Assembly (NCBI RefSeq): GCF_036267815.1
Contig: NZ_DATAVI010000065.1
Location: forward strand, 20,383 to 84,382
Origin: Nocardioides sp.
GTDB lineage: Bacteria > Actinomycetota > Actinomycetes > Propionibacteriales > Nocardioidaceae
Length of the DNA stretch: 64,000 nucleotides
Direction of reading: 5' to 3'
The notes beneath the pieces were generated by a model that was given only the letters and a program-made list of their open reading frames with translations, did no database searches and was not told the origin of the DNA. The position numbers were made by a program, and so were the translations under genes. Position 1 is the stretch's first letter. Every line of letters starts with the position of its first letter. Below are positions 8,859 through 15,779 of the stretch, in pieces.

Positions 8859-11800
8859 ATGAGACCCAGCTTCACCACGTCGGCACGCCGGGTGGCCGTG
8901 GCGCTGACCACGGCAGCAGCAGCCGCGGCAGCGGTGGCGTCGGTCCCGGCGCAGGCCTCCGTGCGACACGACGCGCCTGCGCGGCCGGCCTCGGCCGGGT
9001 TGGGCTCCGGGCTGGACACCACGGGTTCGGCGGCAGCGCGGGCGACCCGGCCACAGGTGGTGACACTGGTGACCGGCGACCGGGTGTCGATCCGCCACGA
9101 CGCGTCCGGCCGGACGATCGCCTCCCTGGTGCCCGGGTCGCCCCACTACGGCAAGCCCGTCGAGTTCGTGACCACTCCCACCCACACCTGGGTCGTGCCG
9201 AAGCTGAGGCCCTCGGTGCGCCGCCGGTTCGACACCTCGGTCTTCGACGTGGCGGCGCTCGCCCGCTCGGGCCGCGTCGCGCTGCGGGTGACGTTCGCCA
9301 AGGGGATGGCGCCACGCGGTCTGCCCGGGCTCGGGCTCCGGGCCGGCACGACCCGCCGCGCCGCCGGTGGCCGGACCACCGCCCTGGCGTCGTACGACGC
9401 ACGGCGGGCGCTCCCCGCGTCGTTCGCCGCGTCCCTGCACGGCGTGCGCCGGATCTCGCTCGCCGACCCCGTCGTGCCGCCCACGTCGGACTACGAGCTG
9501 CACACCTTGACCATCGACGCGACGACGCCGGGTGGCAAGCCGCTCCCCGAGGACGACGTGTACCTGCTGAACGCCGACGACTACCGGCTCTTCGACACCC
9601 TGGGTGGGATCGTCGACGGGCAGTGGAAGGTCTCGGTGCCGACGGGCAACTACTTCGTCGTGGTCAGCACCTTCGACCGCGTCGTCGTGCGCGAGGTCAG
9701 CGTCGCAGACGCCGACACGGAGACCTCCTTGTCCATGGCCGACGCCTCGGTGAAGCCGCGGATGCAGGCGCCGCCGGGCTTCAGGGCGGTCGACCCGGAG
9801 TTCACGATCGGCGGCTCCGACCAGCCCGGCGCCGGCAGCTTCGGGTTCGGGTTCTCCGGCATGTTCCCGAGAGTCAGCCCGGTCACCGACCTGGCCGCAG
9901 GCACGCTGTTCACCGAGGTCTCCGACATCTGGACTCCGAAGAGCTACCACCCGGTCACGTTCCCCCACGGGCAGCCCAAGACCCACGCCGTCAAGCGAAT
10001 CGTCGCGGCCAAGCAGGTGCGCACGGGGATCCCGCACAACCTGACCTTCGCCTACCACAAGAGGGCCTACGCCAACGTCACGGTCAAGCACTACTCCACG
10101 GGCGCCAAGCAGGCGTCGGTGGACAGCTGGCTCGCGTTCAGCCCGGTCGACCGGGGCGTCTTCGGCCTGTCGTTCGCCACCGTTCGGCCCGGCATCGTCC
10201 ACGCGTCGCTGCTGGCGAGCAAGGACCTCGTCTGGGACACCTCGACCGCGCTGAGCCCAGACCCCCGGACCTTCGGCGAGCTCGACCAGCTCGCCGTCTA
10301 CCACCGCGGCCAGCACCCGACGGTGCCGTTCTTCCGCGGGCCGGTCACGCCGGTGGCCGACCGGGGCGGAGAGTCCAGGCGGGTCACCTCGGCGTGTGAG
10401 CTCTGCGTCATCGACGGCACCCTGCTCGGCTCCCTGGCCATGGTCTCCAGCGCCGGCACCGACCAGTTCGGGATCAGCGACCACGGCAGGTTCAAGGTCA
10501 GCCACGGCGGTCGCGTGCTCAGCAAGGGCACCACCTTCCTCCAACCCGCCGTGAAGGGCGTGAGGCCGGGTCAGCATCTCCGGCTCGTGGCGAGCACGAG
10601 GCCACCGGACAAGGAGTACGCCCTGTCCAGCAGGGTCGACGACGCGTGGAAGCTCCCGGTCCCCTCCCGGCGTCGGGCGATCGTGCCGATCCTGCGCGCG
10701 TCGTACGTCCCGCCGGAGAGCATCAACGGCGTCGGCAAGGTGGGCAGGGTGGCCTACCCGGTCACCTTCGACAATCTCGGGCCGATCGACGCGCGGGTCG
10801 CCAAGGCGTCGGTGACGTGGTCGGTGGACGGCAAGCACTGGCATGCCGCGACCCTGAGGCGCACCAGCAGGAACACGTTCCGCGTCTCCTACCAGGACCC
10901 CTCCGCGAGCAAGGCTCACCCGTACCTCAGCCTCCGGGTGTCGGCCCGCGACGCCGCCGGCAGGTCGATCGCCGAGACGGTGCGGCATGCCTACGCGCTA
11001 CCGCACGGCTCGACGAGGCGCACGCTGGCCTCGACTCCCCAGCGCAAGCGCGATCGGTTCCACCCGGGCAGGCTCTGTCGCACCTCCGAGAAGCACCGCT
11101 ACTCCTGCTTCGTGAGGCTCGGGCGGCAGACCAGGGCGACCGGTCGCGCGACCACCGACCCGGCCGGCTGGGGAGCGACGGCGCTGCGCGACGCCTACGG
11201 CATCGGTGCCGACGACGGCACACCGGACACCATCGCGGTGATCGACGCCTTCGGCTACCCGCACGCCGAGCAGGACATGAACGCCTACCGCGCTCAGTAC
11301 GGGCTGCCCGCCTGCACCAAGGCCAGCGGATGCTTCGAGAAGCTCAACCAGAGCGGCTCCGCCGGCAACTACCCCCAGCAGGACTACGACTGGGGCGTCG
11401 AGACGGCGCTGGATCTTCAGATGGCCTCCACCGCGTGCCCGACCTGTCACATCGTCCTGGTGGAGGCCGACGACCCCTCGGACCGGTCGTTCTTCGCCTC
11501 CGAGCAGACGGCGGTGAACGCCGGGGCGACGGTGACCAGCCACTCCTTCGGGCGGATCGAGCTGACCGGTGCCGAGGCCGATGCGGCCCACTACGAGCAT
11601 GACGGTGTCACGGCCGTGGCCTCGACCGGAGACGCCGGCTACGGCCCGGCCAGCTTCCCGGCCAGCTCGCCGGACGTCGTGGCCGTCGGCGGCACCAGGC
11701 TGGCTCGTTCGAGCACCGACCCTCGCGGATGGACCGAGCAGGCGTGGTCCGGGGCGAGCTCGGGCTGCTCGGCGTACTTCGACAAGCCGGCCGGGCAGCC

Positions 11801-12152
11801 GGGCACGGCCTGCCACAACCGCTCGATCGCCGACGTCTCGGCAGTCGCCCGTGGGATCGCGGTCTACGACACCTCGCTGCCGAAGCCGTACCGCGGCTGG
11901 CTCAAGGTCAACGGCACCAGTGCCTCGGCCCCGCTCGTCGCGGGCATGATCGCCTCGGTCGACGGCGCCGGTGTCGGTCCGGAGGACCTCTACGCGGAGT
12001 ACGCCGGCAACGCCGCGTCGTTCAACGACGTGGTCGGCGGGTCCAACGGATTCTGCGAGCACAGCTACATCTGCACCGGCGTTCCGGGATACGACGGCCC
12101 GACCGGCCTGGGCAGCCCCAGCTCCCCCGCGGTATTCGCCCCACCCGCCTGA
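8859..12152 (+). CDS. Large secreted protein with C-terminal S53 (sedolisin-type) peptidase domain, paralog 1
   Basis: Signal peptide (AQA); VETALD (Glu/Asp), STGDAG, GTSASAP (Ser); RBS GAAAGG. Confidence 0.85.
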   Translation: MRPSFTTSARRVAVALTTAAAAAAAVASVPAQASVRHDAPARPASAGLGSGLDTTGSAAARATRPQVVTLVTGDRVSIRHDASGRTIASLVPGSPHYGKPVEFVTTPTHTWVVPKLRPSVRRRFDTSVFDVAALARSGRVALRVTFAKGMAPRGLPGLGLRAGTTRRAAGGRTTALASYDARRALPASFAASLHGVRRISLADPVVPPTSDYELHTLTIDATTPGGKPLPEDDVYLLNADDYRLFDTLGGIVDGQWKVSVPTGNYFVVVSTFDRVVVREVSVADADTETSLSMADASVKPRMQAPPGFRAVDPEFTIGGSDQPGAGSFGFGFSGMFPRVSPVTDLAAGTLFTEVSDIWTPKSYHPVTFPHGQPKTHAVKRIVAAKQVRTGIPHNLTFAYHKRAYANVTVKHYSTGAKQASVDSWLAFSPVDRGVFGLSFATVRPGIVHASLLASKDLVWDTSTALSPDPRTFGELDQLAVYHRGQHPTVPFFRGPVTPVADRGGESRRVTSACELCVIDGTLLGSLAMVSSAGTDQFGISDHGRFKVSHGGRVLSKGTTFLQPAVKGVRPGQHLRLVASTRPPDKEYALSSRVDDAWKLPVPSRRRAIVPILRASYVPPESINGVGKVGRVAYPVTFDNLGPIDARVAKASVTWSVDGKHWHAATLRRTSRNTFRVSYQDPSASKAHPYLSLRVSARDAAGRSIAETVRHAYALPHGSTRRTLASTPQRKRDRFHPGRLCRTSEKHRYSCFVRLGRQTRATGRATTDPAGWGATALRDAYGIGADDGTPDTIAVIDAFGYPHAEQDMNAYRAQYGLPACTKASGCFEKLNQSGSAGNYPQQDYDWGVETALDLQMASTACPTCHIVLVEADDPSDRSFFASEQTAVNAGATVTSHSFGRIELTGAEADAAHYEHDGVTAVASTGDAGYGPASFPASSPDVVAVGGTRLARSSTDPRGWTEQAWSGASSGCSAYFDKPAGQPGTACHNRSIADVSAVARGIAVYDTSLPKPYRGWLKVNGTSASAPLVAGMIASVDGAGVGPEDLYAEYAGNAASFNDVVGGSNGFCEHSYICTGVPGYDGPTGLGSPSSPAVFAPPA

Positions 12153-12297
12153 CGGACCCCACCGGCTCCGTCCCCCGCGGGTCAGCGTTGACTCGTCGGG
12201 GACGCAGCACCAAGAACTCTGGGGGTGTGACGAGGGACGCGGGCGTCTGTCGCGTGATCCACTACGCGTTGCGACGGGTCGTTCTTGAGAGGGTGTC

Positions 12298-15200
12298 ATG
12301 CGTCCTGGTTCCGCCGTGTTTCGATCCTGGTCCGGGTTGGCCATCGTCGCCGCCTTCGCGATGTGCCTCGCGGCGCTTGCCGTGCCGACAGCCCACGCCG
12401 GTACGGCCCCGCTGGTCCCGGCGTTGAAGTCGGAGGCCACGCGACCGAGCGCCACCGGGTCGGCCCAATCGGCCAGCAGGTCGGCCAGCAGGTCGACCAG
12501 CAGGTCGGCCAGCAGGTCGGCCACCTCGTCGAGGGTCGTCACGCTGATCACCGGTGACCGCGTGCGGATCGGCCACGGCCCGTCGGGCCGGGTGGTGACC
12601 TCGCTGACCCCGGGCTCACCCCACTACGGAGAACCGGTCCAGACGATCCGGACCCCAGGTCACATCTGGGTGATCCCGGCACTGGCCACCGGTGTTCGTG
12701 AGCGGCTGGATCCCGCAGTGTTCGACGTCACGGCGCTGGCCCGCACCCCGCAGGTCTCCCTGCGGCTCACGTTCGCCAGGAACGTGAGTCCGCGCAGCCT
12801 CCCGGGCCTCACGCTCGCCACCCACGGTGCGCGCACCCTGCCGAACGGCCGGACCACCGCGGTGGCGTCGTACGACGCTCGCCGTCCGCTCCCCGCGAGC
12901 CTGATCAGCTCACTGCGGGGCGTGGCGCGGGTCGCGCCTGCCCGGAGCCAGTCACCAGCCACCGCCGGATACCAGCTGCATCGGCTGACCATCCGGGTCA
13001 AGGGCGCGCACGGCACGCCCCTGCCCTTTGGGAGTGTGTTCCTCCTCAACACCCACGACGCCAGGCTGTTCGCCTACTTCGGGGCCGTGATCGACGGCCA
13101 GTGGAAGGTCCGGGTCCCCCAGGGTCACTACCTCGCCTTCGTCAACGACGCCCGCTTCCACTACGCGCTCGTCGGGCAGGCCAGGGTGTCCGACGGCGAC
13201 GCGCACATCCATCTCGCGGTGGCCCATGCCACGGTGCGGCCGAAGGTCGGTGCGCCGCCGGGCTTCGTCCGGTCGTTCGCCGACCTCGAGGTGCTCGGCT
13301 TCGACTCCAAGCACCACAGCGCGTCCTACAGCGTCGGACTGAGCGGCGCCGCACCCCGGCTGACCCCGTTGACCCATGCCGCGGGGCGGCTGACCACGGA
13401 GGTTTCGACGACCTGGACCCCCCGCGGGTTCGGGCCGAAGAGCCACCGTCCGGTGAGCAGGGTCGTCATGTCGAAGTTCCTGCGTCACGGCATCCCGCCG
13501 CACCTCGTTTTCCCCTACCAGCCGAGGCGATACGCCGACGTCACGATCGCGAGCCACGCGACCGGGACCAAGCGGCAGCGGCAGACGACCTCGATGTACG
13601 CCCTCGACCGCCGTGACAACGCCGTCGCGCCCACGCAGGTGACGACCGCCCGCCCCGGCATCCTGCATGCCCGCCTGCTCGGCGGCAAGAACCTCGGCTG
13701 GTTCGTCTCCAGCGCGTTCACGGCCGGGCGGAACCAGGTCGACATGGAGGCCATCAGGAAGTTCCGCCGCGGCCAGCACGCCGTCCTGCCGCTCTTCCGC
13801 GGACCGTTGGCGCCGTTCACCGATCGGACTGTGCACGACCCCAAGATGTTCGGTCCGAGGATCTGCCCCGTCTGTGTGGTCCACGGTGCCCTGACGGGAT
13901 TCTCGCCGCTCATCTCCAGCGCCGGCACCAGCCTGGGGGGCGACATCACCTCGGGCCGGTTCGCCGTGTTCTCGGGTCATCGGCGACTCGTCGCCGGCAT
14001 TGCCGCGATCCGTCCGGAGGTGGCGCACGTGGAGCCCGGTGAGCGGTTGCGGCTGGTGACGAGCACGACATCGCCAGGCAAGGACTACACGCTCTCGAGC
14101 CGTGTCCACGACGTCTTCCGCTTCCGCGTGCCGAAGACCGGACACGGTCCGGTGCCTGTCCTGCGCGCGTCGTACGTGCCGCCGGCGAACCTCAGCGGGG
14201 TGGGCCCGGCCGGCCCGGTGGCCTTCCCGATCACCTTCGACAACATCGGCCCGGCCGCGGCCAGGGTGAGCCACGCGAAGGTGCGGTGGTCCACCGACGG
14301 CAAGAGCTGGCATCGCGCCAGGCTCAGCCGTCTCGACAAGAACACCTTCCAGGTCCACGTCCGCAACCCGACGTCGACAGCGTCTCAGAAGTACGTCGAC
14401 CTCGAGGTCCAGGCCCGCGACGCGGCCGGCAGGTCGGTCTCCGAGAGCGTCACCCACGCCTACCTGCTGCCCGCGCGGGTTGGCCGCGCCACCGGTAGCG
14501 GCTCGGCGTCCGGGTCGACTCCACGCACGCTCCGGGTCGGCAACCTGTGCGGCAAGCCGACCCGACACCGTCACGCCTGCTTCGTACAGCTCGCGGCTCG
14601 CCCACCCGGGGTCTCCCGGGGCGCCGCGCGGCCGGACGGCTGGGGTGCCGGGGATCTCGCCGACGCCTATCGCATCGGTAGCCCGGCCGGCACTCCGGGA
14701 ACGATCGCCGTGATCGACGCCTACGGCTACCCGCATGCCGAGGCCGACATGAACGCCTACCGTGCTCACTACGGCCTTCCGGCGTGCACGACGAGCAACG
14801 GCTGCTTCCAGAAGCTGAACCAGAGGGGCGACCAGAGCGACTACCCCAAGCCGGACGCGGCCTGGGGGGTGGAGACCGCCCTCGACCTCCAGATGGTCTC
14901 TGCTGCATGTCGGTCCTGCCACATCATCCTGGTCGAGGCGAACAACGCCGGCCTCGCTCTCGACAGGGCGGAGAGGACAGCCGTGAACGCGGGAGCCACG
15001 GTGACAAGCCACTCCTTCGGCATCCTGGAGACCCACGGGGTCCGCAAGATGGCGGGCCTCTACGACCATCCCGGCGTGACCGCGGTCGCGTCGACCGGCG
15101 ACGACGGCTACGGACCACCGAACTTCCCCGCGAGCTCGCCCAAGGTCGTGGCCGTGGGCGGCACGGTGCTCGAGCGGTCGGACCCCAGTCGGCGGGATGC

Positions 15201-15618
15201 GTGGGCCGAGACCGCCTGGGCGTACTCCGCATCCGGCTGCTCGGCGTACTTCGCGAAGCCGAAGGGCCAGGCCGACACCAGGTGCTCGGGCCGCATGATC
15301 GCCGACATCTCCGCCGTCGCCGAGGACCTGGCCATCTACGACACGTCTGTGCCGAAGCCGGACCGAGGATGGCTCACCGTTGACGGCACGAGCGCCTCGG
15401 CTCCCCTCGTGGCGGGGATGATCGCGCTCGCCGGAGGCGGTGGCCTCCGGCCGTCCCTGTTGTACGCCGATCGCCCCCAGCAGGACTTCAACGACGTCAC
15501 GTCGGGGTCGAACGGCTTCTGCCGACGTAGTTACCTGTGCACCGGCGTACCCGGCTATGACGGTCCGACCGGTCTCGGCACCCCCAGCTCTCCAGCGGTC
15601 TTCGCTCCACCCGCCTAG
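12298..15618 (+). CDS. Large secreted protein with C-terminal S53 peptidase domain, paralog 2
   Basis: Same architecture; VETALD, STGDDG, GTSASAP; ends in the same PSSPAVFAPPA. Confidence 0.85.
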   Translation: MRPGSAVFRSWSGLAIVAAFAMCLAALAVPTAHAGTAPLVPALKSEATRPSATGSAQSASRSASRSTSRSASRSATSSRVVTLITGDRVRIGHGPSGRVVTSLTPGSPHYGEPVQTIRTPGHIWVIPALATGVRERLDPAVFDVTALARTPQVSLRLTFARNVSPRSLPGLTLATHGARTLPNGRTTAVASYDARRPLPASLISSLRGVARVAPARSQSPATAGYQLHRLTIRVKGAHGTPLPFGSVFLLNTHDARLFAYFGAVIDGQWKVRVPQGHYLAFVNDARFHYALVGQARVSDGDAHIHLAVAHATVRPKVGAPPGFVRSFADLEVLGFDSKHHSASYSVGLSGAAPRLTPLTHAAGRLTTEVSTTWTPRGFGPKSHRPVSRVVMSKFLRHGIPPHLVFPYQPRRYADVTIASHATGTKRQRQTTSMYALDRRDNAVAPTQVTTARPGILHARLLGGKNLGWFVSSAFTAGRNQVDMEAIRKFRRGQHAVLPLFRGPLAPFTDRTVHDPKMFGPRICPVCVVHGALTGFSPLISSAGTSLGGDITSGRFAVFSGHRRLVAGIAAIRPEVAHVEPGERLRLVTSTTSPGKDYTLSSRVHDVFRFRVPKTGHGPVPVLRASYVPPANLSGVGPAGPVAFPITFDNIGPAAARVSHAKVRWSTDGKSWHRARLSRLDKNTFQVHVRNPTSTASQKYVDLEVQARDAAGRSVSESVTHAYLLPARVGRATGSGSASGSTPRTLRVGNLCGKPTRHRHACFVQLAARPPGVSRGAARPDGWGAGDLADAYRIGSPAGTPGTIAVIDAYGYPHAEADMNAYRAHYGLPACTTSNGCFQKLNQRGDQSDYPKPDAAWGVETALDLQMVSAACRSCHIILVEANNAGLALDRAERTAVNAGATVTSHSFGILETHGVRKMAGLYDHPGVTAVASTGDDGYGPPNFPASSPKVVAVGGTVLERSDPSRRDAWAETAWAYSASGCSAYFAKPKGQADTRCSGRMIADISAVAEDLAIYDTSVPKPDRGWLTVDGTSASAPLVAGMIALAGGGGLRPSLLYADRPQQDFNDVTSGSNGFCRRSYLCTGVPGYDGPTGLGTPSSPAVFAPPA
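12469..12524 (+). repeat. In-frame 12-bp tandem repeat (TCGGCCAGCAGG x4 plus partial) encoding SASR-type units
   Basis: Read directly; lies just after the signal peptide and is absent from paralog 1. Confidence 0.9.
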
Positions 15619-15658
15619 CGCTGACCGGCCAGGAGCAACACCCAGAGTGCTGCCGGAC

Positions 15659-15733
15659 TTCCTGGCCTCTCTTGTCACTTCTTGGCCGCTGCATCCCCCA
15701 AGAAGTGCCAAATCCCCCGCTTCAGCGGGGGTT
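15659..15733. repeat. Double-hairpin dispersed repeat (family 2), intergenic copy
   Basis: TTCCTGGCCTCTC...CACTTCTTGG/CCAAGAAGTG...AATCCCCCGC-TTCA-GCGGGGG; second copy at 52320. Confidence 0.8.
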
Positions 15734-15779
15734 CCGACGAACACCCAGCAGCACAGCAGGCAAGGAGGGGGCGGTCGGG

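What the first reader, a model, noticed from the sequence alone, without database searches (positions are those of the whole stretch)
8859..15618. Two tandem ~1100-aa proteases with an apparent catalytic-domain swap: S8 scaffold without S8 core, fused to a C-terminal S53 enzyme
Seen: after the signal peptide comes VTL(V/I)TGDRV...(F/L)DVxALAR, then directly 'Y(E/Q)LH.LTI', and later CxxC and 'xSxDGKxW...LxVxARDAAGRS(I/V).E(T/S)V.HAY'. From recall, these are the pro-region and the post-catalytic domains of large Streptomyces-type S8 proteases, but no S8 Asp/His/Ser motifs lie between them. The last ~370 aa is a complete small actinobacterial S53 (Glu-Asp-Ser) protease with its own Cys-bracketed pro-segment. 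Inference: an ancestral S8 lost its catalytic core and acquired an acid-active S53 at the opposite end, and the gene then duplicated. I do not recognise this architecture.
Basis: partly seen in the sequence, partly recalled or inferred. Interest (0 to 1): 0.68.

Follow-up and report, generated by a model that had tools for sequence, protein, structure and literature searches.

The report
Subtilase-derived scaffold fused to S53 protease
Two neighbouring genes of a Nocardioides-type soil bacterium each encode a secreted protease in which a 650-residue non-catalytic scaffold, related to the accessory domains of big actinobacterial subtilases but lacking their catalytic core, is fused to a small sedolisin (S53) enzyme; in other actinobacteria the same two parts are separate adjacent genes, so this is a fused operon rather than a one-off oddity.

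Summary
Two co-oriented ORFs (8859-12152 and 12298-15618; 1097 and 1106 aa; 52% identical) carry every quoted motif. Their last ~330 aa are an intact S53 catalytic domain (kumamolisin E=2e-22; Glu/Asp/Asp/Ser kept), preceded by a Cys-bracketed segment identical in kind to that of ~400-aa standalone actinobacterial S53 enzymes. The first ~650 aa have no Pfam, NCBIfam or PDB match. They align in three collinear pieces with the flanks of 1260-1380-aa actinobacterial subtilases, which carry a Peptidase_S8 domain and usually a PA domain exactly where the window's proteins have short linkers. So the recalled 'S8 scaffold without S8 core' is real.

The S8-less scaffold is a large family of its own, named only 'hypothetical protein'. 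In 8 of 14 contexts examined it is followed within 1-90 nt by a separate small S53 gene with its own signal peptide. The window's genes are the fused form of that two-gene unit; databases call them 'S53 family peptidase'. Eleven of 150 other species in the genus carry one copy; only this genome has two. The two copies are old paralogs, each with closer relatives elsewhere. Polarity (S8 loss), scaffold function and acid activity remain inferred. Verdict: a new variant of a known kind, moderately interesting.

The parts
8859..12152 (+). Gene A: 1097-aa secreted scaffold-S53 fusion protein (P0001)
   Evidence: ORF and translation; RBS-like GGGGAAAGG upstream; full-length homologs at 50-66% identity
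8859..8957 (+). Gene A signal peptide (aa 1-33, ...VPAQA; contains SARRV, so Sec or possibly Tat)
   Evidence: Read from the sequence; the cleavage site is inferred
9045..9485 (+). Gene A scaffold domain 1 (aa 63-209): five-strand beta unit followed by a beta-beta-beta-alpha-beta subdomain. It occupies the position just before the S8 domain in subtilase relatives
   Evidence: AlphaFold2 model pLDDT 94, pTM 0.86; matches S8-type ORFs at E=2e-15; no PDB fold match
9465..9494 (+). Gene A junction (aa ~203-212, SLADPVVPPTSDY) where S8-type relatives carry ~415 extra residues including Peptidase_S8
   Evidence: Collinear HMM pieces 6-142 / 151-288 / 327-651 in S8-type ORFs; Pfam Peptidase_S8 at 265-531 of L033
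9486..11006 (+). Gene A remaining scaffold (aa 210-716): all-beta sandwich domains, CxxC at aa 513-516, ends HAYALP. The PA domain of S8-type relatives is absent around aa 350-390
11007..11156 (+). Gene A linker with Cys-bracketed segment (aa 717-766; C740...C750), homologous to the N-terminal segment of small standalone S53 enzymes
   Evidence: Alignment A2 invariant C24/C34; the same segment follows the signal peptide in standalone and partner S53 genes
11157..12149 (+). Gene A S53 (sedolisin-type) catalytic domain (aa 767-1097): Glu848, Asp852, Asp925 (oxyanion), Ser1021
   Evidence: Profile against PDB: kumamolisin E=1.8e-22 over chain residues 3-352, sedolisin E=6e-18; motif positions; Pfam PF00082 weak hit typical of S53
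12298..15618 (+). Gene B: 1106-aa paralog (P0002), same architecture, 52% identical to A
   Evidence: RBS-like GAGAGGG upstream; closest relatives P0043/P0044 at 65%
12523..12963 (+). Gene B scaffold domain 1 (aa 76-222)
   Evidence: Alignment A3 row 2
12964..14475 (+). Gene B remaining scaffold (aa 223-726; CxxC at 523-526; ends HAYLLPA)
14476..14628 (+). Gene B linker with Cys-bracketed segment (aa 727-777; C751...C761)
14629..15615 (+). Gene B S53 catalytic domain (aa 778-1106): Glu859, Asp863, Asp935, Ser1032

Best explanation
Genes A and B encode exported, catalytically competent S53 (sedolisin-type, Glu-Asp-Ser) endopeptidases. Each is tethered to a ~650-residue all-beta, non-catalytic scaffold. 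The scaffold belongs to a family that shares ancestry with the accessory regions of large actinobacterial PA-domain subtilases: a domain that precedes the S8 catalytic domain, a beta-sandwich after it, and C-terminal beta-sandwich domains. The scaffold has neither the S8 nor the PA domain. In many actinobacteria it is a separate secreted protein encoded immediately upstream of a small, prodomain-less S53 gene. In the window's lineage the stop codon and the S53 signal peptide were lost, so the pair became one polypeptide. Two old paralogs of the fused gene now sit side by side. Shown: the homologies, the intact catalytic motifs, the operon and fusion alternatives, and the phylogenetic pattern. 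Inferred: that the subtilase-type form is ancestral (S8 and PA lost once); that the scaffold serves to bind or position polymeric substrate or a surface for its S53 partner, with fusion enforcing 1:1 co-localisation; and that the S53 may be released by cleavage in the Cys-bracketed linker.
For: S53 identity and catalytic residues. The scaffold has no Pfam, NCBIfam or PDB sequence match, yet 2987 representatives match it at E<1e-3. Of the best 148, 26 carry the S53 and about 100 end exactly at the scaffold's end. Homology to subtilase flanks: split collinear matches in ORFs of 1100-1450 aa across the class, with E=2e-15, 4e-11 and 3e-25 for the three pieces in L033; Pfam shows Peptidase_S8 (E~1e-60) in the first gap in 6 of 6 and PA in the second gap in 4 of 6. 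Operon form: a separate S53 gene with its own signal peptide lies 1-90 nt downstream of the scaffold gene in L069, L070, L077/78, L079 (Streptomyces griseorubiginosus), L080, L081, L083 and L084. In the S53 tree, fused and operon-partner S53s are intermixed, while 7 unpartnered small S53s form a separate group with support 95. In the scaffold tree, S8-type rows lie on one side of a branch (18/19, support 92-96), and the AU test does not reject that (p=0.93). Binding-module reading: the whole-scaffold model matches only Ig/FnIII/macroglobulin-type beta-sandwich arrays, and the same S53 unit is elsewhere fused to CarboxypepD_reg and Kelch domains.
Against: The middle of the scaffold model is poor (pLDDT <50 for residues ~250-450), so the fold of that part is unknown. 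The trees are unrooted, so loss of S8 versus insertion of S8 is not decided. Four same-genus standalone scaffolds, plus one on a short metagenome contig, have no S53 next to them, so the partnership is not obligatory. Unpartnered small S53 enzymes exist, so the S53 does not strictly need a scaffold. Nothing shows a physical scaffold-S53 interaction or a binding target.
Confidence: 0.72

Rival explanations
1. The scaffold is a prodomain surrogate. This small S53 lineage lacks the classical ~190-aa sedolisin prodomain. The retained pre-catalytic domain 1 of the former subtilase, or the scaffold as a whole, would act as a folding chaperone and temporary inhibitor of the S53, in cis in the fusion and in trans in the operon form. 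It would then be removed by autoprocessing.
For: There is no Pro-kuma_activ hit in A or B, and only about 50 residues lie between scaffold and catalytic domain. In S8-type relatives, domain 1 sits exactly where subtilase propeptides sit and runs into the mature N-terminus. Its second half has a beta-beta-beta-alpha-beta topology. Tight operon coupling and co-inheritance of scaffold and S53 fit this reading.
Against: The confident domain-1 model found no subtilase or sedolisin propeptide in PDB; the best hit had E=0.11. About 15 of 148 scaffold representatives, including three S53-fused ones, lack the alpha/beta half of domain 1. Unpartnered small S53 enzymes with the same short N-terminal segment exist, so this S53 type can apparently mature without a scaffold.
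Confidence: 0.18
2. Reverse polarity. The protease-free scaffold is the ancestral form, and the large subtilases arose when an S8 catalytic domain and a PA domain were inserted into it. The window's proteins would then never have had an S8 core to lose.
For: The trees cannot be rooted, and S8-type and S8-less forms are simply the two sides of one branch. Two insertions are formally as parsimonious as two deletions.
Against: The S8-type form is far more widespread: about 48 of the 52 matching genomes in the class-wide sample, spread over many families, against 4 with S8-less forms. Domain 1 abuts the mature S8 N-terminus as a propeptide would. A PA domain is a usual companion of subtilases.
Confidence: 0.2
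3. One reading: within this gene lineage an S8 enzyme lost its core, acquired an unrelated S53 at the far end, and then duplicated in tandem recently.
For: The architecture and the tandem position fit it.
Against: Protease-free scaffolds with separate S53 partners are the common state. A and B are only 52% identical, and each is closer to proteins from other organisms. A syntenic metagenome locus (helicase, fusion gene, LysE) carries a single B-type copy.
Confidence: 0.05
4. The proteins are inactive relics (pseudo-enzymes or decaying genes).
For: None beyond the lack of experimental data.
Against: Both are open frames of ~1100 codons. All four catalytic positions and five Cys pairs of the S53 part are invariant across relatives that are 44-74% identical over the S53 part, and orthologs are kept in many species.
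Confidence: 0.03

Closest known systems
Kumamolisin / sedolisin (MEROPS S53; PDB 1GT9, 1T1E, 1GA6)
   Same: The catalytic domain aligns over the entire mature enzyme (E=1.8e-22 and 6e-18). The Glu-Asp-Ser triad, the oxyanion Asp and the D-x-x-x-G-x-N-G stretch near the C-terminus are conserved.
   Different: There is no Pro-kuma_activ prodomain, only a ~50-aa Cys-bracketed segment. Five predicted disulfides are present. A 650-aa scaffold lies upstream. Sequence identity to the solved enzymes is low, and pH optimum and specificity are unknown.
Small (~400 aa) actinobacterial S53 peptidases (signal peptide, Cys-bracketed segment, catalytic domain), unpartnered or encoded downstream of a scaffold gene
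   Same: The last ~380 aa of A and B match them end to end (E=1e-90 to 1e-136), including the Cys pair. Partner and fused S53s are intermixed in the tree.
   Different: In A and B the signal peptide is gone and the unit is joined to the scaffold's C-terminus.
Large actinobacterial PA-domain subtilases (S8, 1260-1380 aa; for example the ORFs in L033-L037 and L039). Streptomyces SAM-P45 may be of this kind, but that is from memory only and was not tested
   Same: Domain 1, the post-catalytic beta-sandwich and the ~325-aa C-terminal region are homologous and collinear.
   Different: Those proteins carry Peptidase_S8 (about 415 extra residues) between scaffold positions 142 and 151, and usually a PA domain between 288 and 327. 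Most lack the CxxC, and they have no S53.
Standalone scaffold proteins ('hypothetical protein', for example Streptomyces griseorubiginosus AQJ54_40330 / UniRef A0A101RP95)
   Same: The same ~650-aa module from end to end, with the CxxC.
   Different: They end at the scaffold's last domain. The S53 is a separate downstream gene in 8 of 14 contexts examined.
S53-CarboxypepD_reg-Kelch proteins (~1400 aa) of the same genus
   Same: They carry a related small S53 unit (45-47% identical) joined to beta-rich accessory domains.
   Different: The S53 is N-terminal and the accessory domains are unrelated to the subtilase-type scaffold.

Membership tests
Peptidase family S53 (sedolisins) | Catalytic domain homologous to sedolisin/kumamolisin over its full length | tested here: met
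   Profile A2 against PDB: kumamolisin 1.8e-22 (chain 3-352), sedolisin 6e-18, TPP1 3e-10
Peptidase family S53 (sedolisins) | Glu-Asp-Ser catalytic triad in the E-x-x-x-D and G-T-S motifs | tested here: met
   A: E848, D852, S1021. B: E859, D863, S1032. Aligned to kumamolisin E78/D82/S278 and invariant in 10 relatives
Peptidase family S53 (sedolisins) | Oxyanion-hole Asp in the (S/T)GD motif | tested here: met
   D925 in A and D935 in B, invariant
Peptidase family S53 (sedolisins) | N-terminal activation prodomain (Pro-kuma_activ, PF09286) | tested here: not met
   No Pfam hit at E<=1. Profile positions 1-45 do not align to the pro-kumamolisin prodomain. This is a feature of the whole small actinobacterial S53 lineage
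Peptidase family S53 (sedolisins) | Peptidase activity with acidic pH optimum | not testable with these tools
   Needs enzyme assays
Peptidase family S8 (subtilases) | Asp-His-Ser catalytic domain (Peptidase_S8 full-length match) | tested here: not met
   The only PF00082 hit is the partial, weak match of the S53 domain (profile 104-253). A local HMM of the relatives' S8 domains finds nothing in A or B. A Glu stands where subtilases have His
Large actinobacterial PA-domain subtilases | Pre-catalytic domain 1 (VTLxTGDxV ... LFDVxxL) | tested here: met
   HMM positions 6-142 match S8-type ORFs at E=2e-15 to 8e-14
Large actinobacterial PA-domain subtilases | S8 catalytic domain between domain 1 and the next beta-sandwich | tested here: not met
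   A and B have a ~9-residue linker where relatives have ~415 residues
Large actinobacterial PA-domain subtilases | PA domain | tested here: not met
   No PF02225 hit in A or B; present in 4 of 6 S8-type relatives
Large actinobacterial PA-domain subtilases | C-terminal ~325-aa beta-sandwich region | tested here: met
   HMM positions 327-651 match at E=1e-21 to 7e-27
S8-less scaffold family with S53 partner (unnamed) | Complete ~650-aa scaffold without S8 or PA, with CxxC | tested here: met
S8-less scaffold family with S53 partner (unnamed) | Small S53 encoded directly downstream or fused at the C-terminus | tested here: met
   Fused in A and B. Separate gene in 8 of 14 standalone contexts examined

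The most novel reading that the evidence does not exclude
The scaffold is a 'de-catalysed' subtilase that has become a dedicated partner of a protease from a different family: a cross-family foldase, inhibitor or substrate-delivery subunit for a prodomain-less S53. It would work in trans in the operon form and in cis here. The conserved unit would then be a two-component protease system not yet described.
Probability: 0.2. Interest if true: 0.7.

Novelty: new variant of a known kind. Interest (0 to 1): 0.5.

Why it matters
It defines an unannotated, widespread actinobacterial protein family. The scaffold has no Pfam, NCBIfam or PDB counterpart, although about 3000 50%-identity representatives match it, counting subtilase-type relatives. 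It also links that family, by both gene fusion and operon adjacency, to a little-studied lineage of small sedolisins that lack the classical prodomain. It is a clear natural case in which the accessory architecture of one serine protease family (S8) is kept while the catalytic unit is supplied by another (S53). The fusion and operon pairs give a ready-made experimental handle: express the parts together, apart or fused. This makes it possible to ask what such accessory domains do, and how prodomain-less sedolisins mature. Secreted S53 enzymes are also of applied interest, for example as acid-stable or gluten-degrading proteases.

Tried and rejected
(1) Pfam and NCBIfam scans of the full proteins at E<=1 annotated nothing in the first 716 aa.

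(2) A PDB sequence search with the scaffold profile found nothing; the best hit had E=0.7.

(3) Foldseek with the whole-scaffold model (pLDDT 62) found only generic multi-Ig/FnIII/macroglobulin arrays with TM about 0.1, which is uninformative beyond 'beta-sandwich array'.

(4) I tested the idea that the second half of domain 1 is an I9-type subtilase propeptide. A very confident model (pLDDT 94) gave no propeptide hit in PDB, best E=0.11. I keep the idea only as a positional and topological resemblance.

(5) A search of the window's own genome for an S8-type paralog of the scaffold found none; only the two copies are present.

(6) A tandem partner next to copy B's closest relative: the syntenic contig holds a single copy.

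(8) The first genus-wide search failed on the server and was repeated.

(9) Three literature searches for the architecture, including one using SAM-P45 (recalled from memory) as a term, found no description of it. The possible SAM-P45 link was not tested.

Full report
**What is there.** The window is high-GC DNA (about 70-74% G+C). On the + strand it holds two long ORFs, at 8859-12152 (gene A, 1097 aa, P0001) and 12298-15618 (gene B, 1106 aa, P0002). Each has an ATG start behind a purine-rich ribosome-binding-like stretch. The two proteins are 52% identical over 1044 residues. The flanking genes are unrelated: a DEAD-box helicase and a LysE exporter upstream, and an acyl-CoA dehydrogenase and an Rrf2 regulator downstream.

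**The C-terminal part is an intact S53 enzyme.** Pfam finds only a weak, partial Peptidase_S8 hit at the C-terminus, which is the usual signature of a sedolisin. A profile of the last ~380 residues of ten family members (A2) matches the whole mature chain of kumamolisin (E=1.8e-22, residues 3-352), sedolisin (6e-18) and human TPP1 (3e-10). In those alignments the E-x-x-x-D pair, the (S/T)GD oxyanion Asp and the GTS serine are conserved. They are invariant in the family: Glu848, Asp852, Asp925 and Ser1021 in A, and Glu859, Asp863, Asp935 and Ser1032 in B. There is no Pro-kuma_activ prodomain. Between the scaffold and the catalytic domain lie about 50 residues holding a conserved Cys...Cys loop.

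Relatives carry closely related small S53 genes of roughly 400 codons. These consist of a signal peptide, the same Cys-bracketed segment and the catalytic domain.

**The N-terminal part is a subtilase-type scaffold without the subtilase.** Residues ~62-716 have no Pfam, NCBIfam or PDB sequence match. I built a profile of this region (A1) and searched it exhaustively against 1.84 billion representatives. It finds 2987 proteins at E<1e-3 and 388 at E<1e-30.

A class-wide scan of 301 genomes found matches in 52. Most were split, collinear matches inside ORFs of 1100-1450 aa. In six such ORFs that I fetched, Pfam finds a full Peptidase_S8 domain (E about 1e-60), and in four of them a PA domain as well. 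The scaffold profile matches them in three pieces, for example in L033:
- positions 6-142, before the S8 domain (E=2e-15)
- positions 151-288, after it (4e-11)
- positions 327-651, at the C-terminus behind the PA domain (3e-25)

A and B therefore have a ~9-residue linker (…SLADPVVPPTSD/YELHTLTI…) where these subtilases have about 415 residues of catalytic domain. They also lack the PA insert.

One detail of the recall is wrong. The CxxC is a mark of the S8-less scaffold (79/82 fused, 86/109 standalone) and is rare in the S8-type relatives (2/22).

**Structure.** With a shallow alignment, the whole scaffold models as an all-beta protein of moderate confidence (pLDDT 62, poor between residues ~250 and 450). 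Foldseek finds only generic arrays of Ig/FnIII/macroglobulin-type beta-sandwiches. Domain 1 alone, with 57 diverse sequences, gives a very confident model (pLDDT 94, pTM 0.86): a five-strand beta unit, short helices, then a beta-beta-beta-alpha-beta subdomain. It has no significant match in PDB; the best E is 0.11.

I had suspected that the second subdomain is an I9-like propeptide. In the S8-type proteins it runs straight into the mature S8 N-terminus. The fold search does not confirm this, so it remains only a positional resemblance. About 15 of 148 scaffold representatives, three of them S53-fused, lack that subdomain altogether.

**The scaffold is a family of its own, and S53 is its usual partner.** Among the best 148 representatives, 26 carry the C-terminal S53. 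About 100 are proteins of 640-810 aa that end exactly where the scaffold ends. Public sources call these 'hypothetical protein', for example Streptomyces griseorubiginosus AQJ54_40330, and they call the fusions 'S53 family peptidase'.

I examined the surroundings of 14 standalone scaffold genes. In eight (L069, L070, L077/78, L079, L080, L081, L083, L084), a separate small S53 gene follows on the same strand after 1-90 nt. It has its own start codon, signal peptide and Cys-bracketed segment (E=1e-116 to 1e-136 against the S53 profile). In a ninth (L076) the S53 is broken into fragments. Five have none: four from the window's genus and one on a short contig.

A tree of the S53 domains puts seven unpartnered small S53s on one side of a well-supported branch (95). 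Fused and operon-partner S53s are intermixed on the other side. Scaffold and S53 have therefore been inherited together as a unit. That unit is encoded either as two genes or as one, and the switch between the two forms happened more than once. The window's genes are the fused form.

**S8-type against S8-less.** In a tree of the shared C-terminal scaffold region (202 rows), 18 of 19 S8-type rows lie on one side of a branch with support 92-96. On a reduced set, the tree that holds all 19 together is better than the free quick tree and is not rejected (p-AU 0.93). One transition therefore suffices.

Its direction cannot be read from an unrooted tree. I favour loss of S8 and PA for two reasons. 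The S8-type form is much more widely spread: about 48 of the 52 matching genomes in the class sample, over many families, against four with S8-less forms. Domain 1 also sits in the propeptide position. I give the reverse, insertion of S8 and PA into an older scaffold, about one chance in five.

**The duplication.** The window's own genome holds only these two copies of the scaffold, plus one more distant S53 elsewhere. In a sample of 150 other species of the genus, 11 have a full-length fusion, always as a single copy. A is closest to P0003/P0004 (66%) and B to P0043/P0044 (65%), whereas A and B share 52%. In both scaffold trees B groups with P0043/P0044 at 100% support, inside the same nearly all-fused clade as A. 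A metagenome contig carrying P0044 has the same neighbours (DEAD-box helicase, LysE) but a single, B-type copy. The pair is thus an old duplication, or a reunion of two old lineages, and not a recent tandem copy.

**How it most likely works.**
- Shown: two exported proteins with an intact sedolisin active site, joined to a conserved non-catalytic beta scaffold of subtilase-accessory ancestry.
- Inferred: after export and signal-peptide removal, the S53 domain (nucleophile Ser1021/1032, general base Glu848/859 helped by Asp852/863, oxyanion Asp925/935, five likely disulfides) cleaves proteins. The scaffold binds or positions polymeric substrate or a surface. Fusion guarantees the 1:1 co-localisation that the operon form must achieve by association.

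The binding-module reading rests on the beta-sandwich nature of the scaffold, on the role such domains have next to S8 enzymes (established knowledge, not tested here), and on the fact that the same S53 unit is elsewhere fused to CarboxypepD_reg and Kelch domains. The main functional rival is that the scaffold replaces the missing sedolisin prodomain as foldase and inhibitor. It is not excluded, but three findings weaken it: the negative fold search, scaffold variants that lack the propeptide-position subdomain, and unpartnered small S53s. Whether the enzyme is acid-active is unknown.

**Novelty and verdict.** The S53 catalytic unit and multi-domain secreted proteases are known kinds, and the fused proteins are already in databases under a generic S53 name. 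Three things appear undescribed, judging from three literature searches and the absence of any family model: (i) the scaffold family itself; (ii) its descent from, or common origin with, the accessory regions of large actinobacterial subtilases with the catalytic core cleanly absent; and (iii) its conserved pairing with a prodomain-less S53 as operon or fusion.

I rate this a new variant of a known kind with moderate interest (0.5). It is a tidy evolutionary and annotation result with a clear experimental follow-up, but it is not a new mechanism.

Noticed in passing
L085:863-5068 (-), a same-genus genome (G349:C4); similar ORFs in G442, G459, G462 and G377: Proteins of about 1400 aa with an N-terminal small S53 (45-47% identical to the window's S53 part), followed by three CarboxypepD_reg domains and a Kelch beta-propeller. 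This is a third architecture for this S53 lineage.
   Followed up: partly
Own genome, G000:C88:9662-10771 (-), outside the window: A third, more distant S53 homolog (E=2e-48 to the S53 profile) in a 531-codon open frame, with no scaffold gene in the genome besides A and B.
   Followed up: no
window 15652-15666, within the repeat noted earlier at 15620-15740: A terminator-like hairpin directly after gene B's stop. It lies inside a repeat element that another first-stage note describes (copy also at ~52345).
   Followed up: no
window 12460-12534 (gene B aa 55-79): A low-complexity Ser/Ala/Arg-rich linker (SAQSASRSASRSTSRSASRSATSS) between signal peptide and scaffold in copy B only.
   Followed up: no
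L076:7187-8394: Downstream of the standalone scaffold P0115, the S53 partner is present only as two short fragments in different frames. This is either a decayed partner or an assembly error.
   Followed up: partly
L084:7463-10142 (-): A scaffold-S53 operon is followed by a further large (>1100 aa) Peptidase_S8 gene on the opposite strand. That gene matches neither the scaffold profile nor the local S8 HMM.
   Followed up: no
L075 (G135:C4:707500-727000): An S8-type scaffold gene appears split over two reading frames (domain 1 in one, S8 domain in another). The same genome also has a standalone scaffold plus S53 operon (L070).
   Followed up: no
window 8859-8957: Copy A's signal peptide contains S-A-R-R-V-A-V, a possible twin-arginine (Tat) motif. 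Copy B's has no RR.
   Followed up: no
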